Shown: positions 91-5,984 of the stretch, in pieces | Layout of the letters: each line of letters starts with the position of its first letter | Position numbering within the stretch: the first letter of the stretch is position 1 | Notes under the pieces: model-generated | Told to the model about the DNA's origin: nothing | The model's database searches: none | What the model saw: only the letters and a program-made list of their open reading frames with translations | Position numbers and translations under genes: made by a program | Virus record (IMG/VR): IMGVR_UViG_3300029653_000099 | Length of the DNA: 6,604 nt | Direction: 5' to 3' (one strand) | Origin: a virus | Lineage: Duplodnaviria > Heunggongvirae > Uroviricota > Caudoviricetes

Positions 91-232
91 AAACACAACC
101 CGCTACGGGGGAGACTTACCCGAAATCTGATTTATTCAACAAAGCCCCCTGGATGATGATGGTGAACGCTTTGAATTCGAAGCTGGCGATTACCTGATAG
201 ATAACGTTGAAGCGCGGAAGGCCGCGCGCGCT

Positions 233-946
233 ATGTTGCGTCGGTCCGGGGCCGATGTTCTGGAAACCACTCTTCTGGAAAAGTCTCTTTCTCATCTCCT
301 TATGCTGGAGAACGCCAGGGATACGTGTATTCGCCTGGTGCAGGAAATGCGCGATCAGCAAAAAGACGATGATGAAGGTACTCCGCCTGAATACCGTATC
401 GCGAGCATGCTAAACAGCTGTTCCGCGCAGATAAGCAGCCTGATCAACACCATTTACAGCATCCGGAATAACTATCGAAAAGAAAGCCGGGAGGCGGAAA
501 AGCACGCTTTGTCTATGGGGCAAGCTGGCATTGTTAAGCTGGCATACGAACGAAAGCGTGAAAATAACTGGTCAGTGCTGGAAGCGGCTGAATTCATCGA
601 GGCGCATGGAGGAAAAGTGCCGCCCCTGATGCTGGAGCAAATCAAAGCCGATCTGCGTGCTCCTAAGACCAATACCGATGATGAGGAAAACCAAACAGCA
701 TCTGGCGCTCCATCACTTGAAGATCTGGATAAAATCGCGCGAGAACGGGCCGCCAGCCGCCGCGCTGATGCGGCATTGTGGATTGAGCATCGTAGAGAAG
801 AAATTGCCGATATCGTCGATACAGGTGGTTATGGTGATGTCGATGCGGAAGGCATATCAAACGAAGCATGGCTTGAACAGGATCTGGACGAAGACGAGGA
901 GGAAGACGAAGAAGTTACCCGCAAACTGTACGGGGATGATGATTAA
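233..946 (+). CDS. pacA: Terminase small subunit PacA-like, C-terminal portion (237 aa from the first ATG; frame open from 131)
   Basis: Sits immediately upstream of pacB with a TAATG stop/start overlap at 944..948, typical of coupled terminase subunits. The acidic C-terminal tail ([11 protein letters not shown]...GDDD) is typical of small terminase subunits. Synteny with P1 pacA-pacB. The frame is closed upstream by TGA at 128..130 and 41..43, so the gene is either interrupted or shorter than the P1 protein as I recall it. Confidence 0.55.
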
Positions 947-3627: not shown

Positions 3628-3820
3628 AATTATGCCTCACTGTATTGACAACACAGAGCCTGAAGCTCTGACCTACTGTTTCACCCATGATCCATGCTGG
3701 GGTAATCCTACAACATTGCGCTGTGTGTAAGATGAGCAATGCATAGCTGTAATGCCGTTGTATAAGGTTTCCCTGTTTGCTCATTTCCTTCTGAGCCGCT
3801 CTACAACGCTGAAGACACAT
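3593..3820 (-). CDS. Possible small ORF in the imcA/imcB position upstream of coi (75 aa; alternative internal start at 3784); coding status doubtful
   Basis: Only ORF over 60 aa on the minus strand between coi and the operator-bearing promoter. Overlaps the coi start by 35 nt. No convincing RBS (GAAGGAA abuts the internal ATG with 1-nt spacing). Cys/Trp/His-rich composition atypical of a real protein. Confidence 0.2.
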   Translation of the reverse strand: MCLQRCRAAQKEMSKQGNLIQRHYSYALLILHTAQCCRITPAWIMGETVGQSFRLCVVNTVRHNYGFHSTNHRRR

Positions 3821-3858
3821 TAAATAGTGAATCCAAAGTTGTATTACGAAACGGCGGC

Positions 3859-3888
3859 AAAACTATAATTTATTAGAGCAATTGTCAA
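3859..3888 (-). promoter_or_regulatory. Putative immC promoter driving coi-c1: -35 TTGACA (minus strand 3883..3888), near-consensus C1 operator ATTGCTCTAATAAATTA (minus strand 3866..3882, 16/17) in the spacer, -10 TATAGT or TAGTTT
   Basis: Perfect -35 hexamer directly abutting a 16/17 operator match, followed by a -10-like hexamer at 15 to 17 bp spacing. Oriented toward coi and c1. Operator consensus is from recalled P1 literature. Confidence 0.5.
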
Positions 3889-3948
3889 ACAACTATGAAA
3901 AACAATCCAGTTTTTGGCTGGTGGAGTGGGATTTTTCTCTCAAAATTT

Positions 3949-3965
3949 ATTGCTCTAATAATTCT
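3949..3965 (+). promoter_or_regulatory. C1 operator copy ATTGCTCTAATAATTCT (15/17), inverted relative to the 3866..3882 copy
   Basis: Direct sequence match to the asymmetric operator consensus. Forms a back-to-back pair with the minus-strand copy 66 bp away. Confidence 0.6.
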
Positions 3966-4008
3966 TGATTTTTATGCGCAGCTGGACGTAAACTCCTCTT
4001 CAGACCTA

Positions 4009-4042
4009 ATAACTTCGTATAGCATACATTATACGAAGTTAT
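4009..4042. other. loxP: loxP site-specific recombination site (13-bp inverted repeats ATAACTTCGTATA flanking the 8-bp spacer GCATACAT)
   Basis: Exact 34-bp match to canonical loxP. Lies about 420 bp upstream of the cre start, as in P1. Confidence 0.97.
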
Positions 4043-4060
4043 CTTAAGGGTTATTGAACA

Positions 4061-4154
4061 TGATCAATTTACCTGTAAATCCATACAGTTCAATACCTTA
4101 TCAGGTCAAATAGTGATCACTTGATCATTTGATCAAGGTTGCGCTACGTAAAAT
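4061..4154 (+). promoter_or_regulatory. Dam-site cluster and putative cre-region promoter: four TGATCA hexamers (4061, 4114, 4122, 4130), the last three at exact 8-bp spacing, overlapping the -35 region of a -10-like TAAAAT (4149..4154)
   Basis: GATC at 4062, 4115, 4123 and 4131. Recalled literature describes cre promoters regulated by Dam methylation. The -10 and -35 assignment is my own reading. Confidence 0.45.
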
Positions 4155-4199
4155 CTGCGAAATGTTGGCAGTGTTTGTGCTCCAGATTTCGCGTAGCGC
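4141..4199. repeat. Imperfect 17-bp inverted repeat (GCGCTACGTAAAATCTG / CAGATTTCGCGTAGCGC, 15/17) with a 25-bp spacer, ending 33 nt upstream of the 73-aa ORF
   Basis: Arms at 4141..4157 and 4183..4199. Candidate dimeric-protein binding site or RNA stem-loop. Confidence 0.7.
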
Positions 4200-4231
4200 A
4201 CTTAGCACCACCAATCAATCAGAGGTGAAAA

Positions 4232-4453
4232 ATGGGATATTCAGCTGCTAAAGTGTCCACTCATCTTGAGCTTGAGAAAAATCGTGGTTACTGGCGGGCA
4301 AAAGGGTTTGATCGTGATAGTTGTCAACTGTCATTATCGCGCGGTGAAGAAAAGATAGAACGCAGTCGCGGTCGTTGGCGTTTCTATGACGAGAACCATA
4401 AACAGGTAAAGGCAGAGCCGATCCTGTACACTTTACTTAAAACCATTATCTGA
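4232..4453 (+). CDS. Hypothetical small basic protein (73 aa) immediately upstream of cre
   Basis: ATG preceded by a strong RBS (AGAGGTGA, 6-nt spacing). Stop lies 7 nt before the cre ATG, so the two are likely co-transcribed. Lys/Arg-rich sequence. No family recognised. Confidence 0.5.
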   Translation: MGYSAAKVSTHLELEKNRGYWRAKGFDRDSCQLSLSRGEEKIERSRGRWRFYDENHKQVKAEPILYTLLKTII

Positions 4454-4460
4454 GTGTCAA

Positions 4461-5492
4461 ATGTCCAATTTACTGACCGTACACCAAAATTTGCCTGCAT
4501 TGCCGGTCGATGCAACGAGTGATGAGGTTCGCAAGAACCTGATGGATATGTTCAGGGATCGCCAGGCGTTTTCTGAGCATACCTGGAAAATGCTTCTGTC
4601 CGTTTGCCGGTCATGGGCGGCATGGTGCAAGTTGAATAACCGGAAATGGTTTCCCGCAGAACCTGAAGATGTTCGCGATTATCTTCTATATCTTCAGGCG
4701 CGCGGTCTGGCAGTGAAAACTATCCAGCAACATTTGGGCCAGCTAAATATGCTTCATCGTCGGTCCGGGCTGCAACGACCAAGTGACAGCAATGCTGTTT
4801 CACTCGTCATGCGACGGATCCGAAAAGAAAACGTTGATGCCGGTGAGCGTGCAAAACAGGCGCTGGCGTTCGAACGCACTGATTTCGACCAGGTTCGTTC
4901 ACTCATGGAAAATAGCGATCGCTGCCAGGATATACGTAATCTGGCATTTCTGGGGATTGCTTATAACACCCTGTTACGTATAGCCGAAATTTCTAGGATC
5001 AGAGTTAAAGATATCTCACGTACTGACGGTGGGAGAATGTTAATCCATATTGGCAGAACGAAAACGCTGGTTAGCACCGCTGGTGTAGAGAAGGCACTTA
5101 GTCTGGGGGTAACTAAACTGGTTGAGCGATGGATTTCTGTCTCTGGTGTGGCTGATGATCCGAATAACTACTTGTTTTGCCGTGTCAGAAAAAATGGTGT
5201 TGCCGCGCCATCTGCCACCAGCCAGCTATCAACTCGCGCCCTGGAAGGGATTTTTGAAGCAACTCACCGATTGATTTTCGGGGCTAAGGATGACTCTGGC
5301 CAGAGGTACCTGGCCTGGTCTGGACACAGTGCCCGTGTCGGAGCCGCGCGAGATATGGCCCGCGCCGGAGTTTCAATACCGGAGATCATGCAAGCTGGTG
5401 GCTGGACCAACGTAAATATTGTCATGAACTATATCCGTAACCTGGATAGTGAAACAGGGGCAATGGTGCGCCTGCTGGAAGATGGCTATTAG
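4461..5492 (+). CDS. cre: Cre tyrosine site-specific recombinase (343 aa)
   Basis: 343-aa ORF, near-identical to P1 Cre as I recall it (MSNLLTVHQNLPALPVDATSDEVRKNLMDMFRDRQAFSEHTWK...), with the cognate loxP site upstream. A few apparent substitutions relative to the canonical sequence (for example LQRP vs LPRP, IAEISRI vs IAEIARI, LIFGA vs LIYGA, C-terminal GY vs GD); these rest on memory. Confidence 0.97.
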   Translation: MSNLLTVHQNLPALPVDATSDEVRKNLMDMFRDRQAFSEHTWKMLLSVCRSWAAWCKLNNRKWFPAEPEDVRDYLLYLQARGLAVKTIQQHLGQLNMLHRRSGLQRPSDSNAVSLVMRRIRKENVDAGERAKQALAFERTDFDQVRSLMENSDRCQDIRNLAFLGIAYNTLLRIAEISRIRVKDISRTDGGRMLIHIGRTKTLVSTAGVEKALSLGVTKLVERWISVSGVADDPNNYLFCRVRKNGVAAPSATSQLSTRALEGIFEATHRLIFGAKDDSGQRYLAWSGHSARVGAARDMARAGVSIPEIMQAGGWTNVNIVMNYIRNLDSETGAMVRLLEDGY

Positions 5493-5879: not shown

Positions 5880-5984
5880 GCACAAAAGAGCGGGTTTGTA
5901 TTCCGCATTCAATCAATCAAGAAGGAGTATAGTACACAGGTACTGAAGTGAAAAAATGTGATTCGCGATAAACAAATAACTTTA

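What the first reader, a model, noticed from the sequence alone, without database searches (positions are those of the whole stretch)
4043..4460. Uncharacterised 73-aa basic ORF between loxP and cre, behind a Dam-site cluster and a 17-bp inverted repeat
The loxP–cre interval is usually treated as pure regulatory DNA. Here it holds a 73-aa Lys/Arg-rich ORF (4232..4453) with a much better RBS than cre itself, ending 7 nt before the cre ATG, which would allow translational coupling. Upstream are four TGATCA Dam hexamers (three at exact 8-bp period, 4114..4135) and a 15/17 inverted repeat (4141..4199). Together these look like a methylation- and protein-gated control module for the recombinase that includes a small protein of unknown role.
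Basis: partly seen in the sequence, partly recalled or inferred. Interest (0 to 1): 0.55.

Follow-up and report, generated by a model that had tools for sequence, protein, structure and literature searches.

The report
Known P1 cra gene upstream of cre
The small ORF between loxP and cre is the long-annotated but functionally unexplained phage P1 gene cra, sitting in the known Dam-methylation-sensitive control region of the Cre recombinase, so the finding is real but not new.

Summary
The finding is not new. The window is a P1-like phage-plasmid, 98.4% identical to phiW39 and SJ46. The 73-aa ORF is cra ("Cre-associated"; ORF1 of Sternberg 1986; Cra in the P1 genome record), 97% identical to P1 Cra. 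The GATC sites are the annotated Dam sites of promoter pR1/P3cre. A LexA box and the leftward promoter P2coi also lie in the interval.

New comparative results:
- cra is a real gene: dN/dS is 0.07-0.27 with saturated dS, and there are remote homologs.
- In the P1 group it is only loosely constrained: pN/pS is 0.36 against 0.07 for cre, about 5% of alleles are broken, and it is non-essential by CRISPRi.
- A strong cra ribosome-binding site, a weak cre one and a 7-8 nt gap recur in all seven loci examined, down to 64% Cre identity. This fits translational coupling.
- The inverted repeat keeps both arms and an exact 53-bp span in five lineages but shows no compensatory changes. It looks like an unannotated operator, not a hairpin.
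- Other lineages insert extra genes (orf356 and others) between the leader and cra.

The biochemical role of Cra remains unknown: it has no Pfam domain and no informative fold match.

The parts
4009..4042 (.). loxP site (13-bp arms 4009-4021 and 4030-4042, spacer GCATACAT)
   Evidence: Perfect 13-bp inverted repeat with an 8-nt spacer. Annotated as lox in P1, phiW39 and X03453.
4061..4066 (.). TGATCA; Dam site 1 of the cre regulatory region (GATC 4062-4065)
   Evidence: P1 record feature 'Dam methylation site 1' at P1 37-40.
4066..4093 (-). Leftward sigma-70 promoter P2coi, overlapping the LexA box
   Evidence: P1 record, positions 41-68, mapped through the ungapped alignment.
4071..4090 (.). 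LexA binding site (core CTGTAAATCCATACAG at 4073-4088)
   Evidence: P1 record, 46-65. CTGT-N8-ACAG is present at the same place in the P1-group loci and in L084, L086 and L098. L088/L089 carry CTGG in place of CTGT.
4114..4135 (.). Three TGATCA hexamers at 8-bp period. The last two are Dam sites 2 and 3 of P1. The first (GATC 4115-4118) is TGACCA in reference P1.
   Evidence: Present in 48 of 53 haplotypes of the P1 group. Clusters of 2-3 GATC sit at the same place in L084, L086, L088 and L098.
4129..4154 (+). Promoter pR1 = P3cre (-35 TTGATC at 4129-4134, containing a GATC; -10 TAAAAT at 4149-4154)
   Evidence: P1 record 104-129 and X03453. A simple consensus scan does not find it, so it is a weak promoter.
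4140..4200 (.). Dyad element: arms 4140-4157 and 4183-4200 (16/18 complementary) with a 25-bp variable spacer. The left arm covers the pR1 -10.
   Evidence: In the P1 group 3 of 36 arm columns vary against 11 of 25 spacer columns. Arms and the exact 53-bp CTACGT..ACGTAG span are conserved in five lineages. No covariation. Not annotated in the P1 record.
4211..4227 (+). Leader motif CCAATCAATCA followed by the Shine-Dalgarno sequence GAGGTG of cra
   Evidence: The same motif plus SD precedes the first gene of the operon in L084, L086 and L098, and both orf68 and orf356 in L086.
4232..4453 (+). cra (Cre-associated protein; ORF1 of Sternberg 1986), 73 aa, basic
   Evidence: 97% identical to P1 Cra. 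Annotated cra in P1, phiW39, P7 and SJ46. PHROG 804, E = 9e-35. dN/dS 0.07-0.27.
4308..4337 (+). Promoter pR2 = P2cre inside cra (-35 TTGATC with a GATC at 4310-4313; -10 CATTAT at 4332-4337)
   Evidence: P1 record 283-312. The hexamers are not conserved in L084 (codons TTT AAT CGT and TGC CTG ACA).
4425..4449 (+). Promoter pR3 = P1cre inside the 3' end of cra. It would give a cre mRNA with a leader of only a few nucleotides.
   Evidence: P1 record 400-424. A -10-like hexamer (CATTAT, GATAAT or TATAAT) recurs at this place in most lineages. The leader length is inferred.
4454..4460 (+). 7-nt gap between the cra stop codon and the cre ATG. The only SD-like element for cre (GAG, 4452-4454) overlaps the cra stop codon and runs one base into the gap.
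   Evidence: X03453 marks the putative cre rRNA-binding site across the cra stop codon.
4461..5492 (+). cre, tyrosine recombinase, 343 aa

Best explanation
The interval is the cre control region of a P1-like phage-plasmid, and the ORF is the known gene cra.

Shown:
- cra is a real, translated-type gene under purifying selection.
- It is the first cistron of the unit that starts at promoter pR1/P3cre, whose -35 hexamer lies in the GATC cluster.
- It also carries, inside its coding sequence, the two cre-only promoters pR2 and pR3.

Established in the literature: transcription of this region is affected by Dam methylation.

Inferred, about 55% likely: on pR1 transcripts, ribosomes load at the strong cra ribosome-binding site, terminate at UGA and restart 7 nt later at the cre AUG, which has almost no Shine-Dalgarno sequence of its own. 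Cre made from the methylation-sensitive promoter would then depend on cra translation. pR2 and pR3 would provide a low, independent supply.

Inferred, about 45% likely: the 61-bp dyad is an operator. Two conserved half-sites lie 43 bp apart centre to centre, one on the pR1 -10 and one at about +30. They would be bound by a still unidentified protein that shuts pR1.

The biochemical activity of the Cra protein is unknown. It is dispensable for lytic growth and is loosely constrained in the P1 group. It is more probably an accessory plasmid-maintenance-zone protein than an obligatory Cre cofactor.
For: Identity:
- 98.4% DNA identity to phiW39 and SJ46, and 95.6% to P1. The ORF is annotated cra or ORF1, and the Dam sites, pR1-3, LexA box and P2coi are annotated.
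- 97% amino-acid identity to P1 Cra. PHROG 804, E = 9e-35.

Coding:
- Between lineages dS is above 1 or saturated while dN is 0.10-0.35, giving dN/dS of 0.07-0.27.
- Full-length 71-aa homologs at 59-68% identity occur in Salmonella, Klebsiella and Cronobacter.
- Remote homologs of 65-79 aa share the GYWRAKGF and LLKTII motifs.
- The frame is intact in 76 of 80 Cre-anchored loci.

Coupling:
- The stop-to-start gap is 7-8 nt in all seven loci examined (six lineages).
- The cra SD scores -5.8 to -12 kcal/mol.
- The cre SD scores +0.7 to -2.5 in five of them.
- The pairing persists down to a Cre homolog of 64% identity.

Dyad:
- Arms are nearly invariant while the spacer varies.
- The same half-sites and an identical 53-bp span occur in five lineages.
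- There is no compensatory covariation.
- There is no U-tract or terminator and no Rfam family.
- The left arm contains the pR1 -10, so pR1 transcripts cannot form the hairpin.

Dispensability:
- CRISPRi EOP of 0.66, classed non-essential (PMC10695390).
- pN/pS of 0.36 against 0.07 for cre.
- Truncated and in-frame-deleted alleles exist.
Against: - No expression data were available here. Translation of cra and coupling to cre are inferred from sequence only.
- pR2 and pR3 lie inside cra and give transcripts on which cre must start independently, so coupling cannot be obligatory.
- Alleles truncated to 41 aa persist (one on 115 contigs in the large collection). Cre supply therefore survives loss of coupling.
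- In the Pantoea group cre has a moderate SD of its own, -5.8 kcal/mol.
- The pR1 hexamers are 14 bp apart, which is unusual for sigma-70, so the promoter geometry is uncertain.
- The operator reading has no candidate binding protein. Six sequences give little power to detect covariation.
- The Cra model is only of moderate confidence (pLDDT 71) and matches nothing informative.
Confidence: 0.85

Rival explanations
1. Cra is a trans-acting partner of the recombination system. It would bind the conserved dyad to autoregulate the pR1 operon, or bind Cre or lox to modulate cyclization or dimer resolution. This is the 'protein-gated module' the first reader proposed.
For: - Cra is basic, pI 9.6.
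- cra is kept immediately upstream of cre in every P1-like lineage examined, down to 64-65% Cre identity.
- The dyad co-occurs with cra in all these lineages.
Against: - Remote family members are not next to any recombinase. They lie next to iteron arrays, a Rep3 gene or umuDC.
- The predicted fold (two helices, a four-stranded sheet, one helix) gives no HTH, RHH or winged-helix match.
- The half-sites stay almost unchanged across lineages in which Cra has diverged far: 59-65% identity in L084, L086 and L088, and visibly lower in the Pantoea lineage. That fits a host factor or a highly conserved factor better.
- cra is loosely constrained and sometimes broken in the P1 group.
- From general knowledge, Cre needs no accessory protein in vitro.
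Confidence: 0.2
2. The inverted repeat acts as an RNA or DNA hairpin (attenuator, RNase III site or cruciform) rather than as a protein-binding operator.
For: The 105-nt RNA 4136-4240 folds into the long stem at -32.1 kcal/mol, z = -2.2. Across six sequences 85% of cells form standard pairs.
Against: - Pairing is no better than in column shuffles (253 of 500 reach it). Only one pair changes on both sides, and mismatches fall at different positions in each lineage.
- The left arm holds the pR1 -10, so the pR1 transcript starts inside the element and folds no better than shuffles (z = +0.7).
- There is no U-tract and no Rfam match.
Confidence: 0.15
3. The ORF is not a functional gene. Its conservation reflects the promoters pR2 and pR3 and the cre translation start embedded in it.
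For: - Two promoters and the cre initiation region lie inside it.
- In the P1 group pN/pS is fairly high at 0.36.
- About 5% of alleles are broken, and in-frame deletions occur.
Against: - Synonymous sites are saturated between lineages while the protein is kept, with dN/dS of 0.07-0.27.
- pR2 is not conserved in L084, yet the frame is.
- Remote homologs with the same motifs exist in loci with no cre at all.
- A strong SD is present in all seven loci.
Confidence: 0.03

Closest known systems
Phage P1 cra (Cra, 'putative cre associated function'; ORF1 of Sternberg, Sauer, Hoess and Abremski 1986, GenBank X03453; AF234172 positions 207..428)
   Same: Same gene: 71 of 73 residues identical, the same position 190 bp after loxP, the same 7-nt gap to cre, the same SD, and the same internal promoters pR2 and pR3.
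   Different: Two substitutions (A5T and S45T relative to P1). The window has a third GATC in the upstream cluster where P1 has TGACCA. The exact allele already exists in public data: several IMG/VR loci and a 100% match in plasmid NZ_CP034659.1.
Dam-methylation-sensitive promoters with GATC in the -35 or -10 hexamer (P1 pR1/P3cre itself; P1 PkilA/P53, which also carries three annotated Dam sites; IS10 pIN from general knowledge)
   Same: GATC lies inside the -35 hexamer TTGATC, with further GATC sites just upstream. The P1 record annotates a similar trio of Dam sites at PkilA.
   Different: Here the cluster is followed by a conserved dyad that covers the -10, which is not part of the classical description. 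The effect of methylation was not measured here.
Lambda xis-int type arrangement (a small basic protein gene directly upstream of a tyrosine recombinase gene)
   Same: A small basic protein gene is co-transcribed with a tyrosine recombinase gene and lies tightly adjacent to it.
   Different: - Xis is a winged-helix directionality factor, whereas the Cra model shows no such fold.
- Cre/lox has no known directionality control.
- Remote Cra relatives occur without any recombinase.

This is resemblance of layout only, not membership.
Translationally coupled gene pairs (termination-reinitiation)
   Same: A short 7-8 nt gap, a strong upstream SD and a weak or absent downstream SD, conserved across lineages.
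   Different: Dependence of cre translation on cra translation is untested. Internal promoters allow uncoupled expression.

Membership tests
P1 cra / PHROG 804 | Sequence match to P1 Cra and to the family profile | tested here: met
   97% identity to P1 Cra over 73 aa. PHROG 804 E = 9.3e-35 covering residues 3-73.
P1 cra / PHROG 804 | Location between lox and cre on the cre strand, ending just before the cre ATG | tested here: met
   loxP 4009-4042, cra 4232-4453, cre 4461. Same layout as the P1, phiW39 and X03453 records.
Dam-regulated promoter (pR1/P3cre) | GATC within or next to the promoter hexamers | tested here: met
   The -35 TTGATC at 4129-4134 contains GATC 4131-4134. Two more GATC sites lie 8 and 16 bp upstream.
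Dam-regulated promoter (pR1/P3cre) | Promoter activity differs between dam+ and dam- hosts | not testable with these tools
   Rests on Sternberg et al. 1986 (title and GenBank features only; the paper is not in the held library).
Translationally coupled pair | Stop and start codons within a few nucleotides of each other, and a downstream gene lacking a good SD | tested here: met
   Gap of 7-8 nt in seven loci. The cre SD scores +0.7 to -2.5 kcal/mol in five of them, against -5.8 to -12 for cra.
Translationally coupled pair | Downstream translation falls when upstream translation is blocked | not testable with these tools
   Needs reporter fusions.
Operator (protein-bound dyad) | Conserved symmetric half-sites at fixed spacing overlapping a promoter | tested here: met
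   Arms conserved, spacer variable, and an identical 53-bp span in five lineages. The left arm covers the -10.
Operator (protein-bound dyad) | A protein that binds it | not testable with these tools
   No candidate was identified. The half-site occurs nowhere else in P1 positions 1-50000.
Structured RNA / intrinsic terminator | Compensatory base changes that keep the stem; for a terminator, a U-tract | tested here: not met
   Covariation is no better than shuffles. No terminator-like site. No Rfam hit at E <= 1.
Creatininase (the name NCBI gives many copies) | Creatininase domain in a protein of enzyme size | tested here: not met
   The protein is 73 aa with no Pfam or NCBIfam match. The name appears on many database copies and looks like an annotation error.
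Small DNA-binding regulators (HTH, RHH, winged helix / Xis-like) | The corresponding fold | tested here: inconclusive

The most novel reading that the evidence does not exclude
The conserved 61-bp dyad is an unrecognised operator. Together with the GATC cluster and the LexA box it makes Cre synthesis conditional. Cra would be a dedicated, translationally coupled partner that either binds this operator or modulates Cre/lox or plasmid-maintenance functions. The Cra family would then be a new class of small proteins placed next to cis-acting plasmid maintenance sites (lox, iterons).
Probability: 0.15. Interest if true: 0.55.

Novelty: already known. Interest (0 to 1): 0.25.

Why it matters
Cre/loxP is one of the most widely used tools in genetics, yet the native control of cre and the role of its conserved neighbour cra have hardly been studied since 1986.

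The finding itself adds nothing new: the gene, the promoters and the Dam sites are all annotated. The comparative results do give concrete, cheap experiments:
- Test whether Cre supply from the methylation-sensitive promoter depends on cra translation.
- Identify what binds the conserved dyad over the pR1 -10.
- Find out why other P1-like plasmids carry extra conserved genes (orf356 and others) in the same operon.

A practical point: many database copies of Cra are misnamed 'creatininase'.

Tried and rejected
- Pfam, NCBIfam and PADLOC scans of Cra gave nothing meaningful. A PDB sequence search with a family profile also gave nothing.
- Rfam on 3800-4700 gave no hit at E <= 1. The consensus scan for promoters and terminators found none, so the annotated promoters are weak ones.
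- I tested whether the dyad arms are disguised lox half-sites that might let Cre repress itself. The best match to the 13-bp lox arm is 6-7 of 13, which 18-67% of shuffled arms reach, so I rejected the idea.
- I tested whether the genes following the remote Cra homolog in L099, or preceding the one in L101, are c8-like, which would mean the same block without cre. There was no similarity, so I rejected this.
- I looked for LexA boxes near remote homologs. They are present only at the umuDC-linked loci L090-L092, not at L093, L094 or L099-L102. SOS control of the whole family is therefore unsupported.
- I searched for the dyad half-site elsewhere in P1. It is absent from positions 1-50000. The second half of the genome was not searched.
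- The P1 genome paper (Lobocka et al. 2004) and Sternberg et al. 1986 are not in the held library. Their content is used only through GenBank feature tables and citations.
- My first polymorphism count was inflated by one frameshifted allele read out of register. I corrected it.

Full report
**What the window is**

The 6.6-kb window is the immC-lox-cre segment of a P1-like phage-plasmid (Punavirus). Gene order:
- pacA (partial) and pacB on the + strand
- c1 and coi on the - strand
- loxP at 4009-4042
- the 73-aa ORF at 4232-4453
- cre at 4461-5492
- c8 and the start of ref

The interval 3990-4480 is 98.4% identical to phiW39 and Salmonella phage SJ46, 96.7% to P7 and 95.6% to P1. The 418-bp finding region occurs in 700 PLSDB plasmids, mostly from Escherichia, with one 100% match.

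**Check of the observation**

- The ORF, its coordinates and its length are correct.
- It is basic: 15 K+R against 10 D+E, pI 9.6.
- GAGGTG lies 4 nt before its ATG. It pairs to the anti-SD at -7.1 kcal/mol, against -2.5 for the cre start region.
- The cra stop codon ends 7 nt before the cre ATG.
- TGATCA occurs at 4061, 4114, 4122 and 4130. A cluster of three or more GATC in 21 nt arose in 33 of 2000 shuffles.
- The inverted repeat is 16/18 at 4140-4157 / 4183-4200.

**It is already annotated**

[quoted passage not shown] ORF1 (aa 1-73)', with its own putative ribosome-binding site and promoters pR1, pR2 and pR3.

The P1 genome record AF234172 names it cra, 'putative cre associated function'. 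It also annotates:
- Dam methylation sites 1-3 'within the regulatory region of cre'
- P3cre (= pR1), with a GATC inside its -35
- P2cre (= pR2) and P1cre (= pR3), both inside cra
- a LexA site and the leftward promoter P2coi

phiW39, P7, SJ46 and RCS47 annotate cra as well. The window aligns to P1 without gaps from the lox centre to cra, so the P1 features map at P1 coordinate + 4025.

The only local difference from reference P1 is that P1 has TGACCA where the window has the first TGATCA of the cluster. P1 therefore has two GATC sites there and the window three. The three-site form is the common one, in 48 of 53 haplotypes.

Piya et al. 2023 (PMC10695390) list cra as 'cre associated function'. 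Its CRISPRi knock-down gave an EOP of 0.66, it is classed non-essential, and the cra-darB region was used as a neutral insertion site. I found no paper that assigns Cra a function.

**Is it a real gene?** Yes.
- Homologs of 71 aa at 59-68% identity exist on roughly 90-kb P1-like contigs from Salmonella, Klebsiella, Cronobacter and other Enterobacteriaceae.
- Between these lineages synonymous sites are saturated (dS of 1 or more) while dN is 0.10-0.35. That gives dN/dS of 0.07-0.27, compared with 0.05-0.08 for cre.
- A profile search of 1.84 billion representative proteins found only 16 hits at E < 0.001.
  - These include 65-79-aa remote relatives that keep the motifs lELeK-rGYWRAKGF and LLKtII.
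  - The C-terminal motif is therefore conserved at protein level, not merely because pR3 overlaps it.
- The family is PHROG 804, function unknown. It has no Pfam, NCBIfam or PADLOC match.
- The AlphaFold model (pLDDT 71) has two short helices, a four-stranded antiparallel sheet and a C-terminal helix. It resembles nothing characterised.

**How tightly is it kept?** Less tightly than cre.
- In a Cre-anchored sample of 80 close relatives, the 73-aa frame was intact in 76. Two had lost the ATG (CTG) and two were truncated, to 41 and 26 aa.
- The large protein collection also holds in-frame deletions and several frameshifted forms. One 41-aa form was seen on 115 contigs.
- Within the P1 group pN/pS is 0.36 for cra against 0.07 for cre.

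**Relation to cre**

In every P1-like lineage examined cra ends 7-8 nt before cre:
- the P1 group
- L084, L086 and L088
- a Pantoea plasmid, L098, whose Cre is 65% identical
- a metagenomic contig, L093, whose Cre is 64% identical

In all seven loci cra has a good SD (-5.8 to -12 kcal/mol). In five of them cre has essentially none (+0.7 to -2.5).

Coupling cannot be obligatory, for three reasons:
- pR2 and pR3 lie inside cra.
- pR3 would give an almost leaderless cre mRNA (inference).
- Truncated cra alleles persist.

pR2 is not conserved outside the P1 group, whereas a -10-like hexamer at the pR3 position mostly is.

**The operon is larger elsewhere**

In the Salmonella, Klebsiella, Enterobacteriaceae and Pantoea lineages the same leader is followed by extra genes, then cra, then cre. 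The shared leader is lox, a GATC, the LexA box, 2-3 GATC, the dyad, CAATCAATCA and an SD. The extra genes are:
- a 68-aa ORF (PHROG 19934), or a 188-aa ORF in the Pantoea plasmid
- a 352-356-aa ORF (PHROG 7674, unknown function)
- a further 143-aa ORF in the Pantoea plasmid

The start of cra overlaps the preceding gene. The P1 group therefore carries the minimal version, with the operon leader joined directly to cra.

**The regulatory module and the inverted repeat**

- The order and spacing of lox, LexA box, GATC cluster and dyad are conserved in all lineages.
- Within the P1 group 3 of 36 arm columns vary, against 11 of 25 spacer columns.
- Across five lineages the half-sites (consensus about GCGCTACGYRAAWTCTG) and the exact 53-bp span from CTACGT to ACGTAG are retained, while the spacer is unrelated.
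- Formal counting shows 85% of cells paired. Pairing and covariation are no better than in column shuffles (253 and 310 of 500), and mismatches fall at different positions in each lineage.
- The left arm contains the pR1 -10, so a pR1 transcript starts inside the element and cannot form the stem. Its fold is unremarkable.
- There is no U-tract and no Rfam match.
- The half-site occurs nowhere else in the first 50 kb of P1, and its likeness to a lox arm is at chance level.

The best reading is a two-half-site operator that clamps the pR1 -10 and the early transcribed region, bound by an unknown protein. A hairpin role is not excluded, but nothing supports it. The P1 record does not annotate this element. 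It is the least-known part of the interval.

**Remote family members**

These are not Cre-linked.
- One (L090-L092) is a single gene with its own terminator, transcribed divergently from umuDC, with a LexA box between them.
- Three loci (L101, L090, L094) have iteron-type repeat arrays directly after the gene. In L101 the array lies next to a Rep3 initiator gene.
- One (L099) sits in an operon of unknown genes.

This argues against Cra being an obligatory recombinase cofactor. It hints, weakly, at a role tied to plasmid maintenance regions.

**Verdict**

Worth keeping from this work:
- the conserved coupling anatomy
- the conserved, unannotated dyad over pR1
- the extended operon in other lineages
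- the evidence that cra is a real but loosely constrained gene

Interest is low to moderate, because the open question (what Cra does, and what binds the dyad) concerns a famous system but is not surprising to a specialist.

Noticed in passing
window 4232-4453; database copies P0002, P0005, P0006, P0011 and others; PLSDB hits H27, H29, H30, H32: Many NCBI copies of this 73-aa protein are named 'creatininase'. It has no creatininase domain and no Pfam or NCBIfam match at all, so the name looks like a propagated annotation error, possibly arising from the gene symbol cra.
   Followed up: partly
L084 2934-4004; L086 2688-2894 and 2934-4004; L088 2697-2903 and 2934-4004; L098 296-862, 859-1917 and 1914-2345: In P1-like plasmids of Salmonella, Klebsiella, other Enterobacteriaceae and Pantoea, the lox-proximal operon carries extra conserved genes of unknown function between the leader and cra. 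These are a 352-356-aa protein (PHROG 7674), a 68-aa protein (PHROG 19934), and in the Pantoea plasmid also 188-aa and 143-aa ORFs. None has a Pfam, PADLOC or PDB match.
   Followed up: partly
window 4211-4227 and 5909-5926; P1 186-196 and 1885-1895; L086 2669-2678 and 2908-2917: The motif CAATCAATCA followed by a Shine-Dalgarno sequence recurs at gene starts in this region. A second copy, CAATCAATCAAGAAGGAG, sits just after the c8 terminator with no start codon or ORF behind it. It looks like the orphan leader of a lost gene, or a boundary sequence for cassette exchange.
   Followed up: partly
L101 3221-3681; L090 4264-4620; L094 1819-2024: Remote Cra homologs (P0051, P0047, P0049) are each followed directly by an array of iteron-like direct repeats. 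L101 has 9 copies of 20 nt next to a Rep3_N initiator gene. These family members therefore sit beside plasmid replication regions rather than beside a recombinase.
   Followed up: partly
L090 3391-4200 (also L091, L092): One remote homolog is a single-gene unit with its own intrinsic terminator. It is transcribed divergently from a umuD/umuC pair, with a consensus LexA box (CTGTATAAAAATACAG) in the shared intergenic region.
   Followed up: partly
L086 2467-2500; L098 about 40-73: Natural lox variants accompany diverged Cre homologs. The Salmonella lineage has spacer ACACACAT (Cre 79% identical). The Pantoea plasmid has spacer GCTCCAAT with altered outer arm bases (Cre 65% identical). These could be heterospecific recombinase/site pairs.
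   Followed up: no
L084 2268-2391 (- strand): A tRNA-like element lies between coi and lox in the Enterobacteriaceae P1-like plasmid. It scores 31 bits against Rfam RF00005 (threshold 29) and is unusually long at 124 nt. ARAGORN does not call it. No counterpart was looked for in the window.
   Followed up: partly
window about 4283-4390 (cra codons 18-53); alleles P0005, P0006, P0007, P0011, P0035: Several natural cra alleles carry in-frame deletions in the central, predicted beta-sheet part. Some lie between short direct repeats, for example RGYWR...RGRWR. The conserved N- and C-terminal motifs are retained.
   Followed up: no
window 4310-4313 and 4062-4065: The GATC inside the pR2 -35 (TTGATC) is lost in some close relatives (4312 T>G in 7 of 53 haplotypes, giving D27E). 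Dam site 1 is lost in 6 of 53 (4065 C>T). Dam control of these two sites is therefore not universally kept.
   Followed up: no
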